Shown in pieces: positions 1 through 61,225 of a stretch of 64,000 bases of DNA (position 1 is the first letter of the stretch; each line of letters begins with the position of its first letter). The DNA lies in NCBI GenBank assembly GCA_951406725.2, contig OX597821.1, forward strand, positions 5,704,001-5,768,000. The letters run 5' to 3'. Position numbers and translations under genes: made by a program. The DNA comes from Octopus vulgaris (lineage: Eukaryota). Below the pieces are notes generated by a model. It worked only from the letters and a program-made list of their open reading frames with translations. It was not told the origin of the DNA and did not search any database.

Positions 1-465
1 TGCTTGCTTGCTTGCCGGATACTGGATTGTAAACGACTTCCGTCAATATGGCTTTTCTTCATATAACAGTTGTTACCTACTACGCAATTTTTGCCACGTC
101 GTTTGCAATTTACTTCAGAAGACAGCCTACATTCTTTTTTTATGTTTTCTTTTATTTTTTTTTTGTTAGTTTCATGTTGTTGTTGTTGTTGTTTGGTGTT
201 TTTGTGAAATCTTTCTGACAAAGGACTTGAGATTGAAATAGGATTTTGTGCTAATAGGTGTTATATTGTTGAAAATTTATAGTTCTGTGTTCAGTGGGAG
301 AGCGGCTTCTGTCTGTTCTACGTGGATGTATGGCTCATCGTGGACAGATCTATTTTTGTAAGTATGTATGTACGTGTCCCTTCGTATGAGCTTGTGTGTG
401 CGCGCGTAATTATATACGAGCGTCTATTTGCCTGTGTGTGTTTTTCTATGTATGTTTGTATATGA

Positions 466-949
<484 letters not shown>

Positions 950-955
950 TGGGGG

Positions 956-966
956 GTGTGTGTGTG

Positions 967-1014
<48 letters not shown>

Positions 1015-2095
1015 TATGATATTTTGTATAGTATATGTATATGTAGCTCGTGGATTTGTGTATGAGTATTTGTATAAGACTGGGTTAATTTGTGTCTGTG
1101 GCGTACGTATATGTATGTGCGGTTCTGTGTCTGTTTATGTGTGCGGGTATGTACGTGCTTCTATCTGTGAGTATGTGTGTGTTTGGATTATGTTGTGCAT
1201 ATGTATGAGTGTATTATTTGATGAGTGTGTGTGCGTGCTATTGTATGAGTTTGCGTGTGTATGGTTCTTTGTAAGAGTGTGTGTGATTTTGTTATCGTGT
1301 GTGCGTGGTTTTGTCTGTCTACACATATGTGTGTATGTGTTATTTTGTCATGTGTACGTGTGTGTGTATGTGTTTGTGTGTGTGTGTGTGCGTGTGTGTG
1401 TGTGTGTGTGTGCGTGTGTGTGTCTGTGTGTGTATGCGTGTTTGTATGTTGTCTATGCGCGTGTATCTGCAAATCTGTGTGTATTTGTATGTGTGGATAC
1501 CGCGAGTGGGTGATCGCCTGTATGAGAGTGTGTGCTTGTACGCATGCGTGTTCGTGTGGGGGTGGGGTGGGGGTGCGTGTGTGTGTGTGTGTGTGTTTCT
1601 GTGTATGCGTGTATGTCTGTGTATGTTATGCTGTGTATCTGTATATGCGACGAAAGAGCTTGAGTGTATATATGTAAAAAAGGGTGTTTATGGCGTCGAG
1701 TCTGTAAAAAGAGCTAAGTTCGTGCGTTCGTGCATGTGTGTATGCTTCCATATATGAATGTGAATGTGTGTGTGTGAACGTGTGCTTCGCTGTGCAGTTA
1801 ACTTATGTTGGAGACTGCATGTCTGTTTGTAGATACAAGTATGAAATTTCGTGTGAGTGCGTGCGTGTGTGTGTGTGTATGTGCACACGCACGCGTGTGT
1901 GTGTGTGTTTGTGTGGTGCTGTGGGCTTGTGGAGAAAATTTTGAAGGCAACTGCTTGTGTATTTAGAAACATATGCATCAGTATATGTCTATTTAGAGTG
2001 TTCTTATGAAGTTTACTTGTGTTTATGTATATGTGCGTGTGTGTGTGTTTCTATGTAAGTGGGTGTATGTGTGTGTGTCTATGAGTGTGCGTATG
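956..2095. repeat. Degenerate (TG)n-rich low-complexity tract
   Basis: Interrupted TG/TATG repeats. Confidence 0.9.
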
Positions 2096-2194
2096 CTCCA
2101 TTTGTATTTAGCATATGATTTTCAAGGTTTCGATTTGGACACATAGAATGTGTTCGGTTCTCATTGCTGTTGTTGTTGCTGCTGCTGCTGTTGT

Positions 2195-2229
<35 letters not shown>

Positions 2230-3214
2230 TTGTTGCTGTTGTTGTTGTTGTTGTTTAACCCCGGGTCAACCTTTGCTAAACAGCTCTGTGATGATAATCA
2301 TTCCAACCATAATACTCTGATAGTCTCTCACTGGACTGCGTCGTCCAATTTATCCCACTTTTTAAAGGCAATAAAACATGTTTCGAAGGAAATTTGACTG
2401 CTATTTCTAGTATGTTGATCCACCACTTTAAGGCAGCCTCATTGGCTAGTTGTATCCGATAGTAGTCATAACAGTGGTGAAGGCGGTGGTGTGGTGGCAG
2501 TGGTGTTGGCGGTTGTAGTGGTAGTGGTGATGGTGGCAGTGACAGTGTTGGTTGTAGAGGTAATGGTGATGGTGTTAATGGTGGTGGTGCTATTGGTGCT
2601 TGCAGTGATGTGGTGGTAGTGGTGGTTGCAGCGGCGGCGGCGGCGGCGGCGGCGGCGGCAGTGATAGTTCTTTCATTAAACATTTTCTCCTTGAACGTAG
2701 ACAGTAAAACGAAATCGTATTGAAGTGTGTTTTTTAAGGTTACCTATCGCGTAGGCGGTAGCATAGAAGTATTTCTAAAACGTTATACTGACTAGTGATT
2801 TGTTCTTATATAAACAAATCTTACACATGGTATATTTTTATATGTTTATATACTGTCTGAGAGAGAAACAATAAATCTACAAAATTGATGATATAAAAAT
2901 CAATTCACACCATTCTTGCTTGCCAGACAAACTTGATAACATTTTCTCCACAAGAAGCTTGACATGTATTCATCTCACCGATTAAGCTACAAAGATCAAT
3001 GTCCAATCACTCAACAGTTTTCGCAAACACGGATATCTTACATGTCTCAGTTTCATTATTTGAACTTACTTTGAGTACAGGTGTTTATTTGTATGTTTGT
3101 TGGAGTATAAGTATGTTGTACGTATACATGCATGTGTAAATATATATGTAGTACATATATATATAGAGAGAGAGAGTGTGTGTGTGTGTGTGGCAGGAGA
3201 CAGCGAGGGGGATG

Positions 3215-3268
<54 letters not shown>

Positions 3269-3439
3269 TGTATGTATGTATGTATGTATACACACAAATA
3301 TATATAAAGTTGTGTTTATTCTGTTCGCCTGCAAAACCTATGTATATGTATTTACGTGATTGTATGTATGTATATATATGTGTGCGTGTGTATGTGTGTG
3401 TGTATGAATGTATGTATGTATTATGTATATATGAATTAG

Positions 3440-3647
3440 TGTGTCTGTGATTGCCCCCCCCCCCCACTATAACTTGACAAGCGATGTTGGCGTGTTTACG
3501 TCCCTGTCAATTTGCGGTTCGGCAAAAAGAACCGATAGAATAAGTACTACGCTTACAAAGAATAAGTCCTGGGATCGATTTGTTCGACTACAGGCGGTGC
3601 CTCAGCATGGCCGCAGTCCAGTAACTGAAAAAATAAAAGAATAAAAG
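3440..3647 (+). mobile_element. SINE family C, 3' half
   Basis: GCGGTTCGGCAAAA..ACCGATAGAATAAGTAC..CAGCATGGCCGCAGTC..TAAAAGA tail shared with the 37080-37492 copy. Confidence 0.8.
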
Positions 3648-3731
3648 TATATATATCAATGTGTGTGTGCGTACGCGCGCTTGTGTGTAAATATATGCGC
3701 ATGGATGTATGTATGTATGTATGTGTGTATG

Positions 3732-3790
<59 letters not shown>

Positions 3791-4009
3791 GTATATATAT
3801 ATATTTTCATATACATATATATATATGTGTGTGTGTGTATATTTAAAGAGCTAAAAAGCCACTAAGTGGTCAGCCGTATACTAGAAGTAGATCACCTACG
3901 ATCAAACTACAAAGAAAAGAATGCTCTCTAGAGGAAAATTCAGTGGACACCAGAACAAAATGCGGGCAAGACAGATGAAAATTATATAAAAAACAAGAAT
4001 TACTCGCAG

Positions 4010-4074
<65 letters not shown>

Positions 4075-4259
4075 CGTTATATAATTAGAGTTCAGCAAAA
4101 AAAAATTACTTTACCACACACCGAACTTTTAGAAATAGCAGCCAAAGAATTTAGCAATTTCCTCTACTATAAGAAGAGTCTCCCAGACAATGTATACTCA
4201 AAAACAATTCACGTAGGCATAGAGGGAAAAATAACAAAAGATCACACTTACATCGATTA

Positions 4260-4343
4260 CTTGAGAACACCGTTTCTGGGTTAGTTAGATATAGAGATGC
4301 TAGAAATACATCCCTATATCAACATTCCTGTCATCAGCCCAAG
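4260..4343 (-). ncRNA. Type-I hammerhead ribozyme-like motif with long stem II (partly decayed)
   Basis: Minus strand: CUUGGG-CUGAUGA-[GAUAUAGGGAUG/CAUCUCUAUAUC stem]-GAAA-CGGUG-UU-CUCAAG; stem I 6 bp; base of stem II mispaired. Confidence 0.55.
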
Positions 4344-4561
4344 ATTTCGTTAAGTTTAAATTTGAGAGCACTAAAAACCGAACACACCCGTCTGATATGA
4401 GTAACCATATCATTTACCATATTTTAGTAATTTTGAAGTAAGTCGACATTTTTATTTGCTGCCAACAAAAACTGCGCTTGCGGGGTGGATTTGAAAAATT
4501 ATGATGCATAAAGATGAGACATGTGCTTTTTTCCCTCATAATTATATGCTAATGTTTGGCG

Positions 4562-4616
4562 TACCCGCTGATGAGAACTTCGCCTAGCAAATTATTTTTT
4601 TGAAAGTTCGAAACCA
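4562..4616 (+). ncRNA. Truncated hammerhead motif (core + stem II + GAAA; 3' half replaced by (TA)n)
   Basis: CTGATGA(4568-4574)-GAACTT...AAGTTC-GAAA(4610-4613); same stem II base as the 38403 HHR. Confidence 0.5.
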
Positions 4617-4640
4617 TATATATATATATGTGTATATATA

Positions 4641-4792
<152 letters not shown>

Positions 4793-4899
4793 ACAGAAAA
4801 GAGGAATTTCGGTTGTCCCCACGTGGTGGATTGTAATGTATATAAGAAATTAAAAAAGAAAATACGCACACTTACATGGTTATAATATAATTTTCAATG

Positions 4900-4932
4900 T
4901 ATCGACCGGTTTCGCAACCGCTATTCATGATA
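4900..4932 (-). ncRNA. Minimal hammerhead, A3-U8 core variant, in the PLE 3' pLTR
   Basis: UAUC-AUGAAUA-GC(GGUU)GC-GAAA-CCGG-UC-GAUA; palindromic stem III ACCGGU, GUC site. Confidence 0.65.
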
Positions 4933-6715
4933 TAATGTTTAATTTATATGAATATATATTTTTTCGTAAGAAGAAATTTGGTCCATATTGTTTGTATTGA
5001 AATTCACGAGTGAATGACTTTATAAGTTGACAAGTAAAGGGAGGTAATTGGTTGTTATTGTTGTTATTGTTGTGTGTAAGGGAGATAACTGTTTAGGTTT
5101 TGGGTGGGGAATAAATATGTGTACAGAAAGGAGACAGGTTTAAAAAAAGGGACCTTGTTTAGCAGGGGATTTATGTACAGTGATGTAATATGTAAAAATA
5201 TAAAAGTTGGTTATGCGTGCATATTAAGTTGCGTTTTGTATCTTTCAATGAAAAAAGTTTCTTTATTTAAGCGTTCTAGTTGGGAGATTGTGTCTTTGCA
5301 CTGGTAGAAAGGAAAGACTGTAAAATTTGGTTTGATGTTACCTGCACATTTTTCTATGTGTTCACTAAGAGGAATTTGTCTGTATTGCGGGAAACGGATT
5401 TGCTCCTTATGCAGAGTGATTCTCTTCCTCAAAGTTAAACTCGTTTGTTCAATGTACTGATGACTGAAACCCGAGCAGGTTATTACATAAATTAGGTTCT
5501 CAGAGGCACAGGTGAAATTAGTTTTAATTGTGAACCTCTGTCCTTGTTTGAAAAGGAAATCCGAGCCTTCAAGCAGATTGGGGCAGGTTCCATAGTTCGG
5601 GCGTCCACATTTTTCAACCGTTGGTTTCGTTGTTGTTTTGTAAAGCTTCGCATTTGTTAGTAGTCTCTTTAGCGATTTGTCTTGTTTTTTGCATTTGATG
5701 AGTTTGTGTGTTTTCAGGATGTCGTTCATTTTTGGATGTCTAGTTAGTAAAGGGGGAGTTTGCACAATAGTGTTGAATGCCTCACTGTTTCTGGGGTTGT
5801 GTGTTGATATAAAAAGAAAATTTTTTGGTTTGAGGTGTGGTGCTATGGTTTTTTGTTCTTAGTGTTTTTGTGTCTAATTGTTTGGCACGTTTAATTCCCT
5901 CGTCGATAAGAGAGGGTGGATATTGTCTTTCAATAAGTGTTGTTTTAAGGTCTTGATGACGAAGGTTCCAAGTTGTTCTATCAGATACTATTGTGCAGAT
6001 CCTTTTTGGCTAAGTTAAAAGGGATGTTTATTTTTATGTGTTTCGGATGGCATGAGTTAAAAAGAAGATATTGTTTTGAATCAGTTGGTTTATAATAAAT
6101 GTCAGTTATGATTTCATTAAATTTAATTTATCATGATGTCTAAAAATGGAAGTTGTTCTTTATTATATTCCATTGTGAATTGAATGTTACTATTTATGTC
6201 ATTTAGTGTTGTTTTGAAATCCAAAAGTTTGCCGATGTTCTCCTTCCAGATGATAAAACAGTCATCCAGGTATCGCTTCCAATTTTCTCTTATGTAGAGG
6301 TAAAATGGGTAACCATATTTCTGAAGTGATACTTCATATAAGGTGAATTCAAAATAATCCATTATTAGGCTCGTAAGAACAGGAGCTGCTTTCGTCCCCA
6401 TCGCAATTCCGCATTTCTGACGATAGTATGTGTCATCAAATAGGAAATAATTGTTCTGAAGTATAAATTTTAAGGATTCAATAATAAAGATCTGGTTTAT
6501 GCGTTCCGGGAGGACTTCGGGGTACTTTTCCAAACAGAATTTAATTGCTTTTATTCCATAGTCATGGGAGATGTTGGTGTAAAGATTGATAACATCGAGG
6601 GTGACCAATACTGCCTCTTCATTAGTCGTTTTTGGTAGGTGTTCTAACATGTCTAAATGAAGCTTTTGATGTATTTCAGCGAGGGTTTCAGTAAGATGTC
6701 TAAAAAATTGCTCAT

Positions 6716-6752
6716 TATATCATGAATAGCGATTGCGAAACCGGTCAATATA
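6716..6752 (+). ncRNA. Second (inverted pLTR) copy of the A3-U8 hammerhead variant
   Basis: TATC-ATGAATA-GC(GATT)GC-GAAA-CCGG-TC-AATA; first stem I pair mismatched. Confidence 0.55.
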
Positions 6753-7279
6753 TTAAAAATTATATTAAAACCATGTAAGTGTGCGTATTTTCCTTTTTTA
6801 ATTTCTTATATATATATACATATTGTTCTGGAAGTGTAGAAAGAGTTTTAGACAATCTACTCTCGCGGATTATATAAGTAAGATCGAAATTTTTCAGGTT
6901 TAGAAAACCTAGCTGTAAAACCGTTGTGTGGGTTTAGCAAAGAGTAAAATACAATCCAGATAAGAAGACAAAGAAATATTTTATCCCATCTTCATTGACC
7001 AATTGCAATTGTTTCTGTAGCAACTCCTTTTTCAACACCAATTTACGCAAAAGATCATGTGGAGACTTATGTAATATTTGCGATTTTAAACGTTGGAGTG
7101 ACGCTTTGTCAGACTTGTATCATAGGTGAACTCTTATGTCATACGTTTGCCAAGCTTTGAGTTTTGCTGGTATCGGGAGGAAACAAAAGGTGTAAATAAA
7201 CTTACGAATGAAAAAAATTATGATACGACGGGCAGAGCAAAAATAAAATTGATACCAAAGCTGGTTAAAAAAAATATGG

Positions 7280-7615
7280 TTAGAAGAAGGAGGAGAAGGA
7301 AAAGAAGGGAGAAGAAGAAGAAGAAGAAGAAGAAGAGGGAGAAGGAGGAGGAGAAAGAAAAGAAGGGAGGAGAAGAAGAGGGAAGAAGAAGAAGAAGGAG
7401 AAGGGGAAGGAGAAGGAGGAGAAGAAGAACAAGAAGGAGGAGGAGAAAAAGAAGGAGAAGATGAGGGAGGTGGAGAAGAAGAAGAAGAAGAAGAAGAAGA
7501 AGAAGGAGAAGAAGAAGAGGAGGAAGAAGAAGAAGAGAAAGAAGGACGTGGGGAGAACAGGGGTGGAGAAGTTTTGGTGGCTTTGCGATGGTTGTGGTGG
7601 TGGTGGTGGTGGTGG

Positions 7616-7670
<55 letters not shown>

Positions 7671-7690
7671 ACTGGTGGTGGGTGGGTTAT
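7280..7690. repeat. (AAG/GAG)n purine tract followed by GGT/GCT/GAT triplet repeats
   Basis: Direct reading. Confidence 0.93.
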
Positions 7691-8129
7691 GGTCAGTCAA
7701 ATTGAGAAATGCCAAAATGGCAGCGAATTAAGGCTGCCATAGTAATGTCTCAAATCTAAGAAACCAAATAGCCTCGACGGTCAAGTGGTCAGTGACACAT
7801 ATGGCTGTCAGTAACCATCTCATTCAGCTTGACCATATGACTGTAGAAAGCTGGTCAGATACACGTCACGACGCTGATTAACAGTGGACTTAGCAACGGA
7901 CAGTGAGACGATTAAATTGATAAATAGATGCAGTGGCTGGCTGGCTGGCTGGCTGGCTGGCCAGTTGAATGGTTGGTGAGATGAACAGCTGGAGGGGGGG
8001 GAGAAAGGGAGGGAGGGTATTTAGGAAATAATAGAGAATGGAAGACTGGGATTTTGGAGAGTATGGGAGTGGAGTCCTGTCGGGGTGATTGGAGAGATGG
8101 CGTAGATGCAAGTATGTAGATAGCTGTGT

Positions 8130-8130
8130 G

Positions 8131-8212
<82 letters not shown>

Positions 8213-8223
8213 TAGATAGATTG

Positions 8224-8254
<31 letters not shown>

Positions 8255-8465
8255 ACATAACTAGAGAAAGGAAGAGAGAAATATACGCATAGATGTAGAC
8301 AGATAGATAAATAGAAAGAGAAGAAGAAGAAGAAGAAGAAGAAGAAGAAGAAGAAGAAGAAGAAGAAGAAGAAGAAGAAGAAGAAGAAGAGGAGGAGGAG
8401 GAGGAGGAGGAGGAGGAAGAGAAAGAGAGAGAGATGAAGAGACACAGAGAGAGAGAGAGAGAGGA
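8130..8465. repeat. (GATA)n/(GA)n/(GAA)n compound microsatellite
   Basis: Direct reading. Confidence 0.93.
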
Positions 8466-8724
8466 AATCCATTAAACTGTGTGTATGCATTAAACTTTTG
8501 AATACTTGCACGTAACTAACTTTGAATGAAGCACCATTGAAGCCAACTGATATATATGTCAAAATGGAAATAGCTAAACGTCAACAGAGCACAAAGGTTT
8601 TGACTTTTACTGACCACTAACCGATTAAATGTTTGCTTTCGGTGCGTATCTTTGCTGCTCTCGCGCCAGTAAGGACAACAGTAAAACGATATGAAGAAAA
8701 TTATTGCTGTTGGTATTATCATTG

Positions 8725-9078
8725 TCTTCTTCATCTTCTCTTTCTTCTTCTTCTTTTTCTTCTTCTTTTTCTTCTTCTTCTTCTACTTCTTCTTCTTCTC
8801 CTTCTTCTTCTTCTCCTTCTTCTCCTTCTCCTTCTTCTCCTTCTTCTTCTTCTTCTTCTTCTTCTTCTTCTTCTTCTTCTTCTTCTTCTTCTTCTTCTTC
8901 TTCTTCTTCTTCTTCTTCTTCTTCTTCTTCTTCTTCTTCTTCTTCTTCTTCTTCTTCTTCTTTTTCTTCTTCTTCTTCTTCTTCTTCTTCTTCTTCTCCT
9001 TCTTCTCCTTCTCTTTCTTCACTTTCTTCTTCTTTTTCTTCTTCTTCTTCTTCGTCTTCTTCTTCTTCTCCTTCTTCT
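8725..9078. repeat. (TTC)n microsatellite, ~350 bp
   Basis: Direct reading. Confidence 0.96.
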
Positions 9079-9647
9079 AATCAGGACTCACGCCATTGGC
9101 CACAAAGAATAATTTCTAGTTCGAGCCTACTCTAAGCTACCAAAAATGCGTGTGGCAACTTGAAGATCCACCCACCACACGCGATAGACTGGCAGTTGCA
9201 CGGGTGCGAAAGCTACGTTGTTATCCTCATTCCGTAAACGGTGGCTTTTTAACGAGTGGAGGGCTGATCCATCCTGGAGTACAGAGGATTCGCAATCTAG
9301 ACTAGGGTCTGAAAGTTTACCAAACCATAGTGGGTTGCACTATGGTTCCTCTGCTTTGTGGAAGAAGTAGGAAGAAAGAGTGAGACAAAGTTGTGGTAAA
9401 AGAGTACAGCGGGGTTCTGTTCTGTGAAAACTCAAAACAGATGATATTAACAAACAACAAATAATATATCGATATATTTGCTTAATCGCTCGTTGAGCAG
9501 AGTGAGGCAATGGAATCGTGATGGACCTATACCCAGGGGGTACGTGGGTCAAAACTAAGCTCTGCGAAGAAATGGATACTATTTTTGATAATTATACTTT
9601 GCAGCTGTGTTATCGACAAATATACCAACCACACGCACATATATATA

Positions 9648-9738
<91 letters not shown>

Positions 9739-10008
9739 ATATATGTATATGTGTGTGTGAATATGTATATATATATATATGTACATATATATACGTGTGT
9801 ATGTATGTATATATATATATATATGTATGCATGTATATATATATATATATATGTATGTATGCATGTATATATGTACATGTATATATGTATATATATATAT
9901 GTATGTATGAATGTACGGGAATGAGTGGACAAAAGAAGGAAGAAAAAAGATCTCAACACATTTAGTACGAGTTACATTATTACCTAAAACAATTTTATTC
10001 GGTTAAAA

Positions 10009-10092
<84 letters not shown>

Positions 10093-10979
10093 GCGGCAGA
10101 TAGAAATTATATTATGCAATAGAAATTTATACATGGTCAAGAGGTCACAGACTGACCGGGTTAAACCAAAACCCAAACAGTGTAGTGAGTAGAAAAAGCA
10201 ACACCACATTTTGCTTAGTATATAGGATAACATAAAATGGAAAACTACAACAAAATCGGTCTTCATTACATATTTTGTTTGTGGAAACTATATTTTCTAT
10301 ATATATATTATTTTTTTTTTTTGTGGAAACTACGCCAGGTAAAGTCTCGAAGGTAAGAAGCGATTGTCTGATGTTTCTTGATGTATGTCGCGATACTTAC
10401 TTTTGATAAACCAACATATTCCTTCTGTTTTGTGGACAGGTGAGATCTACAAAATGAAGGCCGTGGTTTGCCGCGTAACTGTTAAGTGTTTTCTTTTCCA
10501 TTTCCGCATGGTTGTCCGCCATTATATGTGCATAAACCCAAAAAAACAAAGAATCTCCACTTATTGTATTTCTTCTTCAGTATTTTCCTTCTTCCCTTCC
10601 TTCCTGTAATTTTTCCCATCATTCATCTATTTATCCACTCAATCTTCTTCTTGTTGATTTATTTAATAATTTATTTATTTATTTATTTATCTCCTTATAT
10701 CCTTCCCATAATCCCATTTTCTGTGCAACCGTCGCCTCCTCCTCCATCCCTTCCTCCTTATGCTCTCCTTCTTTTCCTTCTTCCCCTCCACCTCCTCCCT
10801 ATCCCCCTTCCCTTTATACAATCCCTCCTCTTCCTCCTCCTCTTCTTCTTCTTTGTGTATTTTTCTGCCATTTATCAATCTTTACATAAATGAAACCATC
10901 CATCATACTTCCACAGTTCACCATTTCAGCATTATACACAGATGAGCACTTCCTTTCAGCTTGGTTGGGCATGCTTACT

Positions 10980-11680
10980 TTCTTTGTTGTCGTTGTTGTT
11001 ATTGTTATTGTCCTCGTCAGAATCGTTGTTATTGTTGTTCTTGCTCTTCTTCTTGTCGTCGTCGATGTTATTATTGATGTCTTTCCTGCTGTCGTTATTA
11101 CTGTTGTTGTCGTTATTGGGGTTCCACTCGTCGTCGCCGATGATGTTATTGTAGCTCTCTTCTTCTCCTTCTTCTTCTTCTTCTTCTTCGTCTTCTTCTT
11201 CTTTTCCTTCTTCGTCTTCTTTTTCTTCTTCTTTTTCTTCTTCTTTCTCTTTTTCTTCTTCGTCTTCTACTTCGTCTTCTTCTTCTTTCTCTTTTTCTTC
11301 TTCTTTTTCTTCTTCTTCGTCTTCTTTTTCTTCTTCGTCTCCGTCTTCTTTTTCTTCTTCTTCTTCGTCTTTTTCCTTTTCTTCTTCTCCTTCTTCGTCT
11401 TGTCTTCCTCCTCTTCCTTGTTTTCATTCTTGTTCTTTTTCTCTTCTTTTCTTTCTAGTTCGTCTACTACAACCACCACCACTTCTTCTTCTACTACTAC
11501 TACTACTACTACTACTACACCCGCAACTACAACTACTACTACCACCACCACCACCACCTCTACTCTTTCTACTTCTACTGCTGCCACCACCACCTTTACT
11601 ACTACTACTACTACTGCTGCTGCTGTACTACTACTACTACTACTACTACTACTCTGTTGTTGTTCTTGCTGTTGTTGCTA
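10980..11680. repeat. Degenerate GTT/TTC/CTA triplet tract
   Basis: Direct reading; explains the 263-aa poly-V/F/T ORF. Confidence 0.9.
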
Positions 11681-11811
11681 ATGCGGTGTTGAAGTCGTCG
11701 CCCTCGCCAATGTTGTTGCTCTTCGTATTATCGTTGTTGTTTGTTGCTAATAAATGTTGTTGATGTCAATGATGCCATATTGTTGTATTCCTTGTAAGCA
11801 TCTTCAGCAAG

Positions 11812-12142
11812 CATCTTCTACTATAACCCCCAATTGATCAATGCCTTGTGAATGAATTTAGTAAGCGGAAACTGTGTGGAAGCCCGTCGAATATATGTAC
11901 ATGTATGTATGTGTGCGTCAGTGTTTGTGTGCAGCTCTTTGTGTTTGCTCCAACCACTTGACAATCGGTGTTCATTTACATCCTCGTAAATTAGCGGTTC
12001 GGCAAAAGTGAACGATACATCGATAGAGTTATTCCAAAGCTTTAAAAATATATACTGGGGTCGATTTACTCGACTAAAACCGTTCAAGACAGTACCCCAG
12101 CATGGCCGCAGTTCAATGATTGAAACAAGTAAAATATAAAAG
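11812..12142 (+). mobile_element. SINE family C, 5'-truncated
   Basis: GCCTTGTGAATGAATTTAGTAAGCGGAAACTG..GAAGCCCGTCG..TTAGCGGTTCGGCAAAAG..CAGCATGGCCGCAG..GAAACAAGTAAAA. Confidence 0.75.
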
Positions 12143-12959
12143 ATAAATGATACTACCTTTACAATATAAATAATTGAACAAACTGGGTTTTTTTTAGGAA
12201 GATCATCATTAACAAAGCCTATCAACACACCTGTCGTTGTTTGTCTACATTTCCCCTCTACTTTGTTTTCAAAAGTGATGATGTTTGTTTATACCCGAAG
12301 AAATATCTTTCCCCACACCAATCTGAGGCTCTAACAATGGATGCACATTTCATCTTCTAAATGAAATATAGTCAAGCAACAACCGGTGAACGTGTTTACA
12401 GTCTTTATCACTGGAAGAAATTTTCTTTTTCTTTTTATTTTTGGTCAGTGAGTGTTATTTCCTCTCTTTTTTTCTTTTATCTAGAAATCAAAGCAAATGA
12501 CAACTATTCCTTTCGAACTTTGCTTTTATGACCTGGGCATCAATGGTTTTAAACTGACCTATTTTCCACTACATTTCAGAGAGATTCAGCACTGTGTTAC
12601 TGAAGGAGAAATATAGTTAAAGTAAATATTCTGCTCAATACCACAGATCTGCTTCTCAGTTGCTTGACTTTAACCACTTGAGCATGTCCCTTAGTGGCTG
12701 ACAATATGTGCATCTTTGATCCTGAACAGGTGCGAGGTGTACCTCTCATCAGGTGTCAAAGTGACCGCATGGCAACGCGCGATGAAGTGTTTTGCTCAAG
12801 AGCAACGCATCACCCGGTCCAGGAATCGAAATCCCATTCTCGCCGTAGTGAGCGCAACACTGTAACCAGTAGACCGTGCGTAACCCTACGACTAAATAAC
12901 ATTAGTATTGCTGTACGAATAAGTATAATAGTTAATAGCACAAAATGTATTCAAATGTA

Positions 12960-13400
12960 GGTTTCCAATTTTGACACACAGGACCAGCGCGTTCACGGGA
13001 TAGCGATGGGTAAGTCGATTATATTGACCCCAGTACTCAACTGGTACTTATTTTATCGAGTCCGGAAAGATGAAAGGCAAAGTGAACCTTGACGGAATTT
13101 GAACTCAAAACGTAAAGACAGAAGAAATGTTGCTAAGCATTTCGCCCGGCGTGCTAAAGATTCTGCCAGTTCGCCGCCTTTAATAATTTCCAGTAATAAT
13201 CCTTTCTATTATAGGCACAAGGCCTGAAATTTGGTAGGGGTTGGGGTGAGTCGATTACATCGATCCCAGTATGTAACTGGTACTCATTTAATCGATCCTG
13301 AAAAGATGAAAAGCAAAGTCGACCTAGGCAGAATTTGAACTCAGAACGTAAGAACGGATGAAATGCCGTTAAGCATTTTGCAAACAATTCTACCGCCCTT
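12960..13400 (-). mobile_element. Two adjacent SINE family B copies
   Basis: Reverse complement of GGCGGCGAACTGGCAGAATC..TTAGCACGCCGGGCGAAATGC..GAGTTCAAATTC..GACTTTGCCTTTCATC (12960-13180, 13195-13400). Confidence 0.85.
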
Positions 13401-14367
13401 AATAATTTGCAGTAAAAATGAGAGTGAATGTCTTCTTGTTTTGTTTGTAGCAAGTTGTTTGTGCTGTTTAGCTCCCTGCCATGTCTATGATCACCGGTAT
13501 TCCATAGACCTATGCTCAATGGAATTTCAACCACATAAGTATAGACATATGTTTATAGAATGTTTCGTAATTTGGTAGCTTCGATAGTTAGAAGCTCATA
13601 TTATATTCAATCGTTGACCATATATGTAGATGAACACACATACGTATACACAGATATAACACACATAATATACATACGAAGATGCATAGTAACGTATTCT
13701 GTCTGGGATATTGATGGTTAAAATGGTTAGTAGTATAAAATATATTTAAATATTAATCACATATTCAGACAAATACGTACGTTAACTTACAATTCATACA
13801 TATACGGACATAGAACACAGTATGTTTTAGGAACAACTGTCGTATAAAATGTAATTAAATATTAACCTATTATGCTGACAAATACGATTTTAGAGAGTAC
13901 ATATTCAGTAGCAGAATACTTCTAAAATATTGGTGGCTGTCATAGTTAGTAGTATATAATATATCTAAATTCTAAGCGGTAGTATATTTTATTTGCAGAT
14001 AATTTGTAGATACAAGTACTACCAGTTGAAAGCTTCGAATACCGGACGCATCAGGAGAAAATCCACGCCGTTTCGGGGGGTCTTCCTTTCGACAGTATTA
14101 TTGCGTACTGCCTCACCCCATCAGTGACATAAGTCTCCACTCGTTAGATCAACTGGTTACTAGACTTCACTCAATGCTCTTCTAGCCATTGCCCATCGTC
14201 TCTTTTTAACCAAATCCAGTAACTTGACTTTCTCACTGTAGCCTGGATGTCACTCACGATGGTATTTGCTTTACGCTGAGTCAGCCCTAGCAATAACAAA
14301 CATCCCTCATATTTAAATACTTCCCACATATATAGACAAAGGTATTGACACACGAAGAGTTAAATAA

Positions 14368-14742
14368 TCTTTTCTATTATAGGAACAAGGCCTGAAATTT
14401 GCGGAGGGGACTAGTCGATTAGATCGACCCCAGTGTTTCGCTGGTACTTAATTTAGTGACCTCGAAAGGATGAAAGGCAAAGTCGACCTTGGCGGCAAAG
14501 AGTTAAATAATAATGTTATTTATTTCAAACACTGGAATCTATTAATATTCTTTTCTACTCTAGGCACAAGGCCCGAAATTTTTGGGGAGGGACCAGTCAA
14601 TTAGATCGACCCCAGTACGCAACTAGTACTTAACTTATCGACCCTGCAAGGATGAAAGGCAAAGTCGACCTCGGCGGAATTTGAACTCAGACCGTAAAGA
14701 CAGACGAAATGTTGCTAAGCATTTCGCCCGGCGTGCTAACGT
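14368..14742 (-). mobile_element. SINE family B copies (partial 14368-14497, 14550-14742)
   Basis: Same family B motifs on the minus strand. Confidence 0.85.
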
Positions 14743-14774
14743 TGGAGTCTATTAAGATTAAAGAGATCACTAAG

Positions 14775-15000
14775 GCAGGAATGTTAGCACGCCGGGCGAG
14801 GTGCTTGGTGGTGTTTCATCTGTCTTTATATTCTGAGTTCAAATTCCGCCAAAGTCGACTTTGCCTTTCATACTTTCGGGGTCGATAAATTAAGTACCAG
14901 TGACGCACTGGGGTCGATGTAATCGACTTAATTCTTTTGTCTGTCTTTGTTTGTCCCCTCTATGTTTAGCTCCTTGTGGGCAATAAAGAAATAAGAAATG
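14775..15000 (+). mobile_element. SINE family B
   Basis: TTAGCACGCCGGGCG..GAGTTCAAATTCCGCC..GGGGTCGATAAATTAAGTACCAG..AATAAAGAAATAAGAAA. Confidence 0.85.
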
Positions 15001-15185
15001 TTAGCCGACTGAAATGGTAGTCGACTGGATCGATTCCCAGGACTAAATTTTGTTTTTTTAAAAGCCTGGAACTTTTGCTGAACCGCTAGGTGACGGTGCC
15101 GTAAACACATCAACACCAGTTGACAATCGTTGGTAGAGGACAGACACAGACACAACAAAGATACACACAAACAAACATATATATA

Positions 15186-15648
15186 TAGAGGTTGGACAAA
15201 ATAATGGAAACACCTTAAAATTTCAAACAAATTAATTTTAATATAGGGTAGGACCGCCTTTGACAATAATTACAGCTTGAGTTCTACGAGGTATGGACTA
15301 GTTGTAAAGTTTGAATTGTTTCCAAAGGAATTTTTGTCCATTCTTCAACTGGAACAGTCTCCAGTTCTTGTAGTGATAATGGTGAAGGATATCGACTCCT
15401 TACTGGTTTTTCTAAAATGCACGATAAATGTTCAATAATATCGAGATCTGGGACTGTGGTGGCCAGACAAGATGTTCAAATTCATTAGAATGTTTCTAGA
15501 AGAAGAAGCAACAATTTTAACAAAACATATTAAGCAACGCTTATAATGAATAAAAAGAAACAAAAAGAAACAAGCTTTTGACGGTTTTATAGACATTTCA
15601 AAATTATATGCTATGATGCAAGGTGTTTCCATTATTTTGTCAAACACC

Positions 15649-15650
<2 letters not shown>
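15186..15650 (-). mobile_element. Internally deleted Tc1-family DNA transposon
   Basis: ~30-bp TIRs (TAGAGGTTGGACAAAATAATGGAAACACCTT / AAGGTGTTTCCATTATTTTGTCAAACACCTG); minus strand encodes WPPQSPDLDIIE...EEWTKIP...SIPRR...KGGPTLY (DD34E C-terminus). Confidence 0.85.
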
Positions 15651-15736
<86 letters not shown>

Positions 15737-15855
15737 TTTGTATAATCTAAAATTTACAAAATGTGTTTATTATGGTTGTTTTGACTTTAAGAGCCCCTCC
15801 TAGCGTGAGGCATTTATGTATAGTAATGCCCTTAATATAAATAACATACATATAT

Positions 15856-15914
<59 letters not shown>

Positions 15915-15982
15915 CGTAAGCAATCTTAAAGCTTATAAGTGACCTTCGTGCATTGACTAAAGTAAATAGTCTAATATTGGGG

Positions 15983-16051
<69 letters not shown>

Positions 16052-38384: not shown

Positions 38385-38710
38385 GTTGGCCCTGGTCAGT
38401 ATTACTCACTGATGAGAACTAAGTGATCGTTCTCAAAGTTCGAAATCACTGTGATATGGGTATGTCTGATTTTCATTTTCGATTCTTTTCGTCTATGCTA
38501 CGGGAGTCTTAAAATTTTACTGCTCGTTCCCTCGATTTCGTCCCTGTGCATAACTGAAAACTGTGGGTGAGTCGTTTTGACTGGTATTTTTATGATGCTG
38601 GGGCTACAAGTAGCACGCTTCATTATTAATTGATAATTTTACTATTATGGTTCTTTTACACATGCTGGCCACTAATATTATTGTAAATTATTAACAATAT
38701 CCTTATATAC
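38385..38710 (+). mobile_element. Non-coding HHR-bearing repeat unit, copy 2
   Basis: Homologous to 36541-36898 in circularly permuted order. Confidence 0.7.
38403..38462 (+). ncRNA. Complete type-I hammerhead ribozyme motif
   Basis: TACTCA-CTGATGA-GAACT(16 nt)AGTTC-GAAA-TCAC-T-GTGA-TA-TGGGTA; stems I (6 bp), II (5 bp) and III all pair; AUA site after 38456. Confidence 0.85.
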
Positions 38711-40667: not shown

Positions 40668-41718
40668 CATTGGGTTGTCCGGAAAGTTCGTGCCGATTTT
40701 TAAAGGAAAGAAAAAGGTCAATGAATACTTGCCATTACATTTTTAATCAACCAAATATGAACCATCTTGTTGCACAATGCGTCTCCATCTTTCCTTTAAC
40801 TTGAAAATACCCTCTTCCCAGAATCGAGGTGGTTTCATGGCAAAGAATTCATCAAAGTATCTTTTTACGTCATCCAAGTCATTGAAATTCTTATCATTAA
40901 CACTATTAAGACCATTCTGCAGAACCTGAATAAGTGGAAATCTGAAGGAGCAAGATCTGGTGAATAGGGAGAATTGAGTAACACATCCCTGCCGAGCTTC
41001 AGCAATTTTTGTCTGGTTCTCAAAGAAACGTGCGGTCTTGCATTATCATGGTGGAAAACAACACCCTTCCTGTTGGCCAATTCTTGACATTTCTCTTGAA
41101 TTGCTGCTTTTAACTCTTCCAGTTGTGTGCAGTATTTCTCAGAATCAATTGTCTGGTTACTTGGGAGAAGCTCATAGTACAGAATTCCTTTCCAATCCCA
41201 CCAGATACAAAGCAAAATTTTTTAGGGAGAAGACCCGCTTGTGGGGTGGTTAAGGGTGGCTCATGTCGCTTACTCCAGGATCGCTTTCTCTGAACATTTC
41301 GGTAGACATTCCATTTCTCATCACCTGTCATAATTTGCTTTAAAAAAGGTGCGTTTTCATTCCGTTTATAAAGCGAATCACAGATGGAAATGCGATCCAA
41401 AAGGTTCTTCTCACTCAACTCATGTGGTACCCAAACATCGTAGCGAGTTGTGTACCCAAGCTTTACCAGGTGCTCATGAACGACGGATTTTGATAGGTTG
41501 AGGCTTTCTGCCAATTCTCAGGTTGTGCAATGTAGTTGAACAATGACTTAGTGGATGGTCTGTCTGATCGCTCTTTATCAATAAGGCTACAATCTCCAGC
41601 TCGGAACCTTGCGAACCACTTCCGTGCAGTTCTTTCGGATAAAGAAGCATCACTGTAAACTGCGCATATTTCTTTGGTTGCTTGTGAGGCATTTTTCCCT
41701 TTACGGAAAAAGAAATTT
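40668..41718 (-). mobile_element. mariner (DD34D) transposon, frameshifted, one TIR, 5' end truncated
   Basis: WVPHELSEKN, MTGDEKW, HHDNARPH, SPYSPDLAPSDFHLF; TIR TTGGGTTGTCCGGAAAGTTCGTGCCG next to TA repeats. Confidence 0.92.
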
Positions 41719-42572
41719 CCCGTGCTACCGATATAGTCTTTCTGGCAGCCCGAGCATCTGATTACGTAGATCAGATCTTCGGATGAACAAGTGAAATTTG
41801 ATTTAATTGTAAAGTGTTGCCTTTGTTTAAAATTGCTTTCTGATCTTGCAAATGGTTGGGGCATGTAACATTTTGGGGTGATTACATTTTTTTGGCTTTG
41901 GAACTTGTGGAGGGGAATAATTTTGCATTAGTTAGCAGTTGTTTTAATGACTCAGGTTGTTTGTTGATTTTGACAATTTTAATGTCGCGTAAAATTATTT
42001 TTAGTTTTGGGTCCTTGTGTAGTATTGGCAGGTTTTGTATGATTGTTCTGAATGCTTCTTTGTTTCTGGGGTTGTCTGTGTTGTATATGTAGGGTAGTGT
42101 TTTAAGAAGAGTTTTGTTAATGTCTTTGGTTTTTCTTAATGTCTCCAGGTTGATAGATTTGGCACGTTTTATTCCTTCATTAATGAGTTGGATTGGGTAG
42201 CATCTATCCAGGAGGGCGTTTTTCACTTCTTGTAGTCTTAAATCTCTAGTTTTTTTTCTCTCATATTAACTTATTGATTCTTCTCTTCCTGCAAGTTTGA
42301 AGGGGATGTTTGTTTTTGTGTGTCTAGGATGGCAAGAGCTAAAGAAAAGGTATTGTTTTGCATCTGTTGTTTTATAAAATATGTCTATTTCGATTTTGTT
42401 GTTGTTTGTTTTTTTAATTAGATGCCTAGGAATAGAAGTGTCTGCTGGTTGTATTCCATTGTGGATTGAATGCTTGTGTGGATGCTGTTCAGAAGTGTTT
42501 TAAATTCTAGGAGTTTGTTTAAGTTGTTATTCCAGAGTATGAAACAGTCATCCAGGAATCTCTTCCGATTCA
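41719..42572 (-). mobile_element. Penelope-like element fragment (RT C-terminus to GIY-YIG N-terminus)
   Basis: RRFLDDCF, YKTTDAKQYLFFSSCHPRHTKTNIPF, YPIQLINEGIKRAK, DLIYVIRCSGCQKDYIGST; same family type as 5211-6650. Confidence 0.88.
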
Positions 42573-42619
42573 CTTTATATATATACAATTCTCTTTATAT
42601 ACATATATATATACAATAA

Positions 42620-61143: not shown

Positions 61144-61225
61144 TAGCTCTGATGAGACTTATATAAGTGAATTGAATTGTTTGTATATCAAATAATGTAT
61201 ATAAGTCGAAACAAATTGTTGGCTG
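61144..61225 (+). ncRNA. Type-I hammerhead ribozyme motif
   Basis: TAGCT-CTGATGA-GACTTATATA(32 nt)TATATAAGTC-GAAA-CAA-A-TTG-TT-GGCTG; perfect 10-bp stem II. Confidence 0.8.

What the first reader, a model, noticed from the sequence alone, without database searches (positions are those of the whole stretch)
4900..4932. Natural A3-U8 compensatory variant of the hammerhead core in a Penelope pLTR
Seen: both pLTR copies (4900-4932 -, 6716-6752 +) read AUGAAUA where CUGANGA is expected, in an otherwise proper context (stem I UAUC/GAUA, stem II GC/GC, GAAA, ACCGGU, GUC). Established: positions 3 and 8 form a Watson-Crick tertiary pair (C3-G8) in the active hammerhead, and compensatory pairs can rescue activity. 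Inference: A3-U8 is a double change that keeps this pair, which implies selection on ribozyme function. Standard CUGANGA searches would miss it.
Basis: partly seen in the sequence, partly recalled or inferred. Interest (0 to 1): 0.8.

Follow-up and report, generated by a model that had tools for sequence, protein, structure and literature searches.

The report
Transposon hammerheads swapping core base pair
A family of jumping genes carries, in over a thousand genomic matches, a small RNA motif shaped like a self-cutting hammerhead ribozyme whose textbook C-G core pair is replaced by A-U, while its sister families use U-A, G-C, C-G or U-G, which likely means evolution keeps the pairing rather than the letters, though cutting itself is untested.

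Summary
Confirmed and extended. Window 4900-4932(-) is a minimal type I hammerhead motif with A3-U8 in the 3' pLTR of a decayed, 5'-truncated Penelope-like element. The second copy is the same insertion's inverted pLTR, so it is not independent, and its stem I closing pair is broken. A3-U8 is the family state: 97 of 100 listed pattern matches, and 18 of 18 motif-bearing copies picked by endonuclease alone. Three A3-U8 families with unalignable flanks keep the fold through fully covarying stems. With the same palindromic stem III the genome holds U-A (5444 matches), A-U (1210), U.G (238), C-G (114) and G-C (110). A3-U8 probably came from U-A, and separately from G-C, not directly from C-G. Against: wobble and C.A subfamilies also spread; a published all-double-mutant scan rescued only G3-C8; no cleavage data. 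Natural U3-A8 is in print, and the scan noted it before in another genome. I found no natural A3-U8 or G3-C8 in 10 searches, but the key paper (Lunse et al.) was not held. New variant of a known kind.

The parts
4900..4932 (-). Minimal type I hammerhead motif, A3-U8 variant (A3 4928, U8 4923, C17 4904; predicted cut between 4904 and 4903). This copy has GGUU in loop II where 22 of 25 subfamily copies have GAUU.
4905..4910 (-). Palindromic ACCGGU (15.1-16.1). It cannot close as a monomer hairpin and is the predicted intermolecular stem III.
   Evidence: sequence; (monomer not evaluable, dimer model foldable)
4832..4937 (-). Part of the 3' pLTR that is shared with the inverted copy
   Evidence: 100 of 108 identical
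4790..4838 (-). 3' 'tail' of about 48 nt, absent from the inverted copy; abuts a microsatellite
   Evidence: present or absent among 25 subfamily copies
5211..5858 (-). C-terminal ORF piece with GIY-YIG endonuclease
   Evidence: PF01541 E 9e-4, 19.9 bits, below the 22.6 cut-off; 43% identity to full-length homologue P0005
6123..6719 (-). Reverse transcriptase piece. It is 5'-truncated and separated from the EN piece by stops and frameshifts.
   Evidence: (PF00078, 30.3 bits, cut-off 29.6)
6713..6820 (+). Inverted 5' pLTR copy with the second A3-U8 motif (A3 6722, U8 6727, C17 6746); stem I closing pair broken

Best explanation
This is the minimal type I hammerhead motif in the pLTR of a Penelope-like retrotransposon family, and its family-wide A3-U8 likely re-forms the 3-8 core pair of a ribozyme that is predicted to cut after C17 only as a dimer. 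Shown: position in the pLTR about 290 nt after the endonuclease; A3-U8 fixed in the family; covarying stems I and II; a palindromic ACCGGU; and U-A, G-C, C-G and U.G at the same two positions in sister families. Inferred: two pLTR copies of a tandem transcript, or two RNAs, pair through ACCGGU and swap stem I strands. A3 then pairs with U8 and places the 2'-OH of nucleotide 8, which with G12 does the catalysis (passage), so the base at 8 can vary if the pair holds. Cutting is probably slow and helped by the element's own protein, as reported for another PLE, and would process the element's RNA. Selection acted on the source elements; the window copy itself is a decayed insertion.
For: Family state: 34 of 34 aligned copies from 30 loci, 97 of 100 listed matches out of 551 with control 0, and 18 of 18 motif-bearing copies among 20 picked by endonuclease rank only. 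Three A3-U8 families have stem I UAUC/GAUA, UGUC/GACA and AAGCA/UGCUU, N7 = A or U, H17 = C or A, and stem II GC/GC or GU/AC, while their flanks are only 42-60% alike. Genome-wide, in one context: U-A 5444, A-U 1210, C-G 114, G-C 110, U.G 238, against 296 for the other eleven combinations together. In family C, A-U and G-C copies differ by one change on a tree built without the core (25 of 52 copies, SH-aLRT 76). 17 hand-picked copies give 92.5% paired cells and covariation 0.805, against 0.177 shuffled and at most 0.223 slid. The dimeric hammerhead is the lowest-energy dimer for a family C A-U copy and within 2.5 kcal/mol of it for a family A copy.
Against: No cleavage data. Roberts 2023 (PMC9901934, passage): in an all-double-mutant scan of a type III hammerhead only G3-C8 was rescued and all other doubles in that region were low, which includes A3-U8. 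Strict Watson-Crick pairing is not required for spread: a young U3.G8 subfamily with long, near-intact ORFs and a C3.A8 retrozyme-like subfamily (24 identical of 69) amplified. Frangieh 2024: hammerhead cleavage was not needed for insertion in vitro, and no RNA-seq reads began or ended at the site. Stem II is only 2 bp, with no visible loop I-loop II contact. The invariance of UGA, A9, G10.1 and CGAAACCGGU across families is imposed by my patterns. Matches are copies, not independent events; the protein tree needs a minimum of only 5 changes over 12 family tips. The window copy folds 8.6 kcal/mol better into a non-hammerhead dimer.
Confidence: 0.7

Rival explanations
1. The fold and the 3-8 pair are selected as a structural element, such as a binding site for the PLE protein, a dimerisation signal or a template-positioning element, and A3-U8 copies cleave little or not at all.
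For: Cleavage was dispensable for insertion in vitro, and the ribozyme needed protein. Metazoan PLE minimal hammerheads cleave poorly, and the authors do not rule out other functions. A3-U8 was not rescued in one scan. U.G and C.A states spread.
Against: Position 17 takes C, A or U in every family consensus and N7 is free, as cleavage rules predict, although H17 was fixed by most of my patterns. The 3-8 pair belongs to the active conformation (passage), so covariation there points to the active fold.
Confidence: 0.2
2. A3-U8 is a dead-ribozyme founder state that hitch-hiked with one successful master element, so the pairing is coincidence.
For: Copies share ancestry. A3-U8 subfamilies look older (median nearest-copy identity 87-97%) than the youngest U-A and U.G ones (98%).
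Against: A3-U8 persists across families A and B, whose endonucleases are about 77-80% identical and whose stems covary, and it appears again in family C from G-C by a double change. In the endonuclease-picked sample the core differs at 3 of 306 cells against 113 of 1618 in the flanks (not independent).
Confidence: 0.06
3. A3 was fixed because A3-U4-G5 makes an AUG start codon, and U8 followed as compensation.
For: In PAc the ORF starts inside the hammerhead. A GTAAGT donor-like site lies about 50 nt downstream in family A, and no full-length family A copy was found to exclude splicing.
Against: The AUG frame most often closes after 18, 18, 16 and 11 codons in the four subfamilies. In a full-length sister element ORF1 starts about 210 nt downstream of the motif. 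G3, U3 and C3 families have no such AUG.
Confidence: 0.04

Closest known systems
Minimal hammerheads of Penelope-like elements (Cervera & De la Pena 2014, PMC4209133; read parts 1-2 of 4 of the text and parts 1-2 of 3 of the supplement)
   Same: Type I topology, location in the pLTR, short stem I, G10.1-C11.1, palindromic 15.2-16.2/loop 3, inverted second copy, predicted dimer; U3-A8 covariation reported in Schistosoma (about 1,300 hits).
   Different: Purine at 3 (A3-U8, and G3-C8 in a sister family) is not in the 56-motif alignment I read; stem II is only 2 bp; no extra nucleotide between 9 and 10.1.
Natural core variants of Perreault et al. 2011 (PMC3088659, section 8 read)
   Same: Covariation of the 3-8 pair in nature, taken as compensatory.
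   Different: Only U3-A8 is described there.
PAc (Poseidon, Anolis) hammerhead, Frangieh et al. 2024 (PMC11167929, passages)
   Same: PLE hammerhead in which C3G/G8C partly rescues the single mutants; protein-assisted cleavage.
   Different: The swap is engineered, whereas here G3-C8 and A3-U8 are natural family states; the PAc ORF starts within the motif.
Small dimeric PLE hammerhead variants, Lunse, Weinberg & Breaker (RNA Biol 14:1499; seen only as a citation; not held)
   Same: By its title, numerous small PLE-associated variants that cleave as dimers.
   Different: Unknown; it may already list purine-3 cores.

Membership tests
Hammerhead ribozyme, minimal type I (PLE) | Stems I and II in register around the core, with covariation | tested here: met
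   (6 of 6 stem I pairs change on both sides; rows hand-picked)
Hammerhead ribozyme, minimal type I (PLE) | U4 G5 A6, A9, G12 A13 A14, A15.1-U16.1, H17, G10.1-C11.1 | tested here: met
   window sequence; endonuclease-picked copies differ at 3 of 306 core cells
Hammerhead ribozyme, minimal type I (PLE) | Canonical letters C3 and G8 | tested here: not met
   A3/U8 in 97 of 100 listed, C3-G8 in 0
Hammerhead ribozyme, minimal type I (PLE) | Complementarity between positions 3 and 8 | tested here: met
   6878 of 7412 matches Watson-Crick, 7116 with U.G (tally); exceptions exist
Hammerhead ribozyme, minimal type I (PLE) | Palindromic stem III permitting a dimer | tested here: met
   ACCGGU; cofold model
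Hammerhead ribozyme, minimal type I (PLE) | Unpaired nucleotide between 9 and 10.1 (Cervera consensus) | tested here: not met
   A9 is followed directly by G10.1
Hammerhead ribozyme, minimal type I (PLE) | Match to an Rfam hammerhead model | tested here: not met
   no hammerhead hit in window 1-16000 at E<=5; none in 4 loci at gathering score, including a U3-A8 copy
Hammerhead ribozyme, minimal type I (PLE) | Site-specific self-cleavage after H17 | not testable with these tools
   only assembled contigs were available
Penelope-like element, C-terminal EN+ | [quoted passage not shown] | tested here: met
   (GIY-YIG below the Pfam cut-off; full-length homologues carry both domains)
Penelope-like element, C-terminal EN+ | pLTR, inverted 5'-truncated copy, tail on one end only | tested here: met
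   described as typical passages
Penelope-like element, C-terminal EN+ | Assignment to a named clade (Penelope/Poseidon, Neptune, Nematis) | not tested
   no named reference RTs in the tree; a CxxxxCxxC linker motif before the EN is only a lead towards Neptune/Nematis

The most novel reading that the evidence does not exclude
One clade of Penelope-like elements in a single (probably octopus) genome has run through all four Watson-Crick pairs plus the U.G wobble at the hammerhead 3-8 position. It reached A3-U8 twice by different routes (from U-A and from G-C). These purine-3 cores are active, previously unreported natural ribozymes whose relaxed core is made possible by help from the element's own protein.
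Probability: 0.35. Interest if true: 0.68.

Novelty: new variant of a known kind. Interest (0 to 1): 0.52.

Why it matters
It is a natural covariation test of a tertiary pair known from crystal structures. Among elements that were transposing, the letters at 3 and 8 changed repeatedly while pairing was nearly always kept. That suggests PLE hammerheads are selected in the active conformation, which bears on the open question of whether these weak motifs really cut. It supplies matched natural constructs: family C differs at 3 and 8 (A-U versus G-C) in an almost identical pLTR. It also shows that CUGANGA-based searches would find under 2% (114 of 7412) of the matches in this context in this genome, so reports of PLEs that lack a hammerhead deserve a re-scan with a free 3-8 pair.

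Tried and rejected
Rfam gave no hammerhead hit. Single-strand folding of 5 copies gave z from -0.16 to 1.18, uninformative for a dimer-dependent motif. Sequencing runs: no RNA holder listed on record. Four runs under four organism labels were laid; all are contigs and cover the motif, and no difference at 4923 or 4928 is among the 40 rows shown, but 111 rows were hidden and contigs cannot show RNA ends. The metagenome scan gave 1 match without stem I, rejected as chance. The first tree run timed out and was redone on 40 of 54 rows. One origin of purine-3 cores is neither shown nor rejected (p-AU 0.094). The young outgroup family has a long microsatellite-rich 3' region and its motif was not reached in the stretches fetched; one older copy (L260) shows a U3-A8-like core. 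A search for a full-length family A copy found none. An independence expectation printed used guessed marginals and is not used. Alternative registers for the core were rejected by inspection, because stem I closes directly on A3. Papers sought but not held: Lunse et al., Przybilski & Hammann 2007, Martick & Scott 2006, Scott 2013, Seehafer 2011 and a recalled review id. The supplement of Roberts 2023 was listed but not read.

Full report
Observation. On the minus strand, window 4932-4900 reads UAUC AUGAAUA GC GGUU GC GAAA CCGG UC GAUA. This is a type I hammerhead layout with A at position 3 (4928) and U at position 8 (4923). Stem I closes directly on A3, so the register is not in doubt. A second copy lies on the plus strand (A3 6722, C17 6746), with the closing pair of stem I broken. 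The pattern occurs twice in the window and never in 100 shuffles. The two copies are arms of one inverted repeat, 100 of 108 identical.

Context. Between the arms, on the minus strand, lie an RT piece (6123-6719, PF00078 above cut-off) and a GIY-YIG piece (5211-5858, below the Pfam cut-off, E 9e-4), broken by stops and frameshifts. Full-length homologues of about 750 aa carry both domains. The closest named proteins are from Octopus species, one of which groups with this family, so the host is probably an octopus (inference). A tail of about 48 nt ends the 3' pLTR only. An inverted 5'-truncated copy and a one-sided tail are described as typical of Penelope-like elements (passages). The window therefore holds one decayed insertion, and its two motifs count once.

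Family state. All 34 aligned motif copies from the 30 most similar loci, the window's own included, have A3 and U8. A pattern with 3, 7 and 8 left free has 551 matches (control 0); of the 100 listed, 97 are A3-U8, three are single changes and none is C3-G8. To avoid choosing by the motif, I took 20 copies at steps down an endonuclease ranking of 150. 18 carry the motif and all 18 are A3-U8; 2 lack the pLTR. In these 18 the core differs at 3 of 306 cells and the flanks at 113 of 1618 (subfamily differences are included, so cells are not independent).

Selection on the fold. Looser patterns found further A3-U8 families linked to homologous endonucleases. Family A has stem I UAUC/GAUA, family B UGUC/GACA with N7 = U, and family C AAGCA/UGCUU with stem II GU/AC and A17. 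Outside stem I the flanks of these three are only 42-60% alike in global alignments, yet the stems still pair. On 17 real copies that I picked by hand, one or two per subfamily, leaving out family F and the C.A subfamily, 92.5% of cells pair. The covariation score is 0.805, against 0.177 for shuffles and at most 0.223 for slid controls, and the 3-8 pair reads AU 6, UA 5, GC 4, CG 1, UG 1. The invariance of the other core letters across families is imposed by my patterns and is not evidence.

All pairs at 3-8. In the context N-UGA-N-N-A-(N)-G..C-GAAA-CCGG-UH the genome has U-A 5444 matches, A-U 1210, U.G 238, C-G 114 (pattern without the last H; mostly a 359-360 bp tandem retrozyme-like repeat) and G-C 110. 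The reversed-pattern controls were 1-3. The other combinations give A with A/C/G 108, C.A 69, G with A/G/U 65 (minus) and pyrimidine-pyrimidine 54. Watson-Crick states are 6878 of 7412. The mismatch lists are mixtures of single changes from the big families, with exceptions that tell against a strict rule. Most listed U.G matches are two near-identical sequences, from young elements with 98-99% identical inverted copies and long, near-intact ORFs. Family F is mostly U.G (7 of 10 held copies). 24 of 69 C.A matches are one retrozyme-like sequence. So wobble-type intermediates can spread. These are copy counts, not events.

History. Protein trees (40 of 54 rows, 20 rows, LG+G4, several rows under 40% filled) give (E U-A, ((F U.G/C-G, D U-A/U.G), (C G-C/A-U, (H U-A, B A-U, A A-U)))). 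At least 5 changes are needed over 12 family tips. H falls with A and B at 98/98, but one origin of purine-3 cores is not rejected (p-AU 0.094). Within family C, a DNA tree without the core columns (25 of 52 copies) puts the A-U copies on one side of a branch (support 76), inside G-C copies under a midpoint root. The likeliest reading is that U-A is ancestral here, that the window's A-U came from U-A, and that A-U arose again from G-C by two transitions. A direct C-G to A-U change is not indicated.

Mechanism. ACCGGU cannot close as a hairpin. In a two-strand model the dimeric hammerhead is the lowest-energy fold for a family C A-U copy and a U-A copy, 2.5 kcal/mol above the minimum for a family A copy, and 8.6 above for the window copy, whose loop II change favours another hairpin. 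Catalysis is attributed to G12 and the 2'-OH of nucleotide 8 (PMC6155905, passage), which explains why the base at 8 can change if the pair holds (inference). Metazoan PLE motifs cleave weakly and as multimers (PMC4209133). In PAc, C3G/G8C partly rescues, cleavage needs the element's protein, and cleavage is not needed for insertion in vitro (PMC11167929, passages). Against activity of A3-U8: a scan of all double mutants of a type III hammerhead rescued only G3-C8 (PMC9901934, passage). From recall only, Przybilski & Hammann 2007 found any Watson-Crick pair tolerated in a context-dependent way; I could not read it. The AUG formed by A3-U4-G5 most often opens only 11-18 codons, and in a full-length sister element ORF1 starts about 210 nt downstream, so a start-codon explanation is weak, though untested for family A.

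What is known. Natural U3-A8 is in print (PMC3088659 section 8; PMC4209133). Ten full-text searches showed no report of natural A3-U8 or G3-C8. The library lacks the most relevant paper (Lunse et al.) and cannot search figures or colon-written pairs, so absence from print is not established. The scan's index holds one U-A note from another genome and nothing on this sequence or genome.

Verdict. The feature is real, fixed in the family and backed by covariation. It is best read as a selected hammerhead variant whose cutting is unproven. The wider result, all four Watson-Crick pairs plus a wobble in one transposon clade, is more interesting than the single variant. New variant of a known kind; interest 0.52.

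Noticed in passing
window 4568-4615 (+), 38409-38450 (+), 61149-61215 (+): Three canonical CUGAUGA hammerhead-like motifs with longer stem II, apparently from other families; the first runs into an (AT)n microsatellite.
   Followed up: no
window 41718-42573 (-): A second, more distant PLE RT/EN fragment (49-53% identity to P0005).
   Followed up: no
L032-L050, L231, L232: A 359-360 bp tandem retrozyme-like repeat with the same ACCGGU palindrome and no linked ORF; held copies show C-G (11), C.A (6) and U-A (2) at 3-8.
   Followed up: partly
L218, L220, L221 (family D3) and L222-L226 (family F): Both U3.G8 families have stem I out of register (a bulged U in D3, a larger shift in F), a possible co-adaptation with the wobble pair.
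   Followed up: no
L221:482-4555 (-): A full-length element with direct pLTRs, an upstream ORF1 starting MPQKT about 210 nt after the motif, and the RT-EN ORF; a family E pLTR sits about 100 nt upstream of it.
   Followed up: partly
L070, L090, L165, L168, L171, L180, L218, L220: A conserved CATTTTTTAG-like motif 30-60 nt before the start of RT-EN homology in several families; possibly a splice acceptor or an ORF1/ORF2 frameshift site.
   Followed up: no
G000, e.g. L257 (C8:9194466): A very young, high-copy related PLE family with many intact 776-aa frames and a long microsatellite-rich 3' region.
   Followed up: partly
L076, L082, L084, L093: Some family C copies carry a short duplication of stem I plus the 5' half of the core just upstream of the motif.
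   Followed up: no
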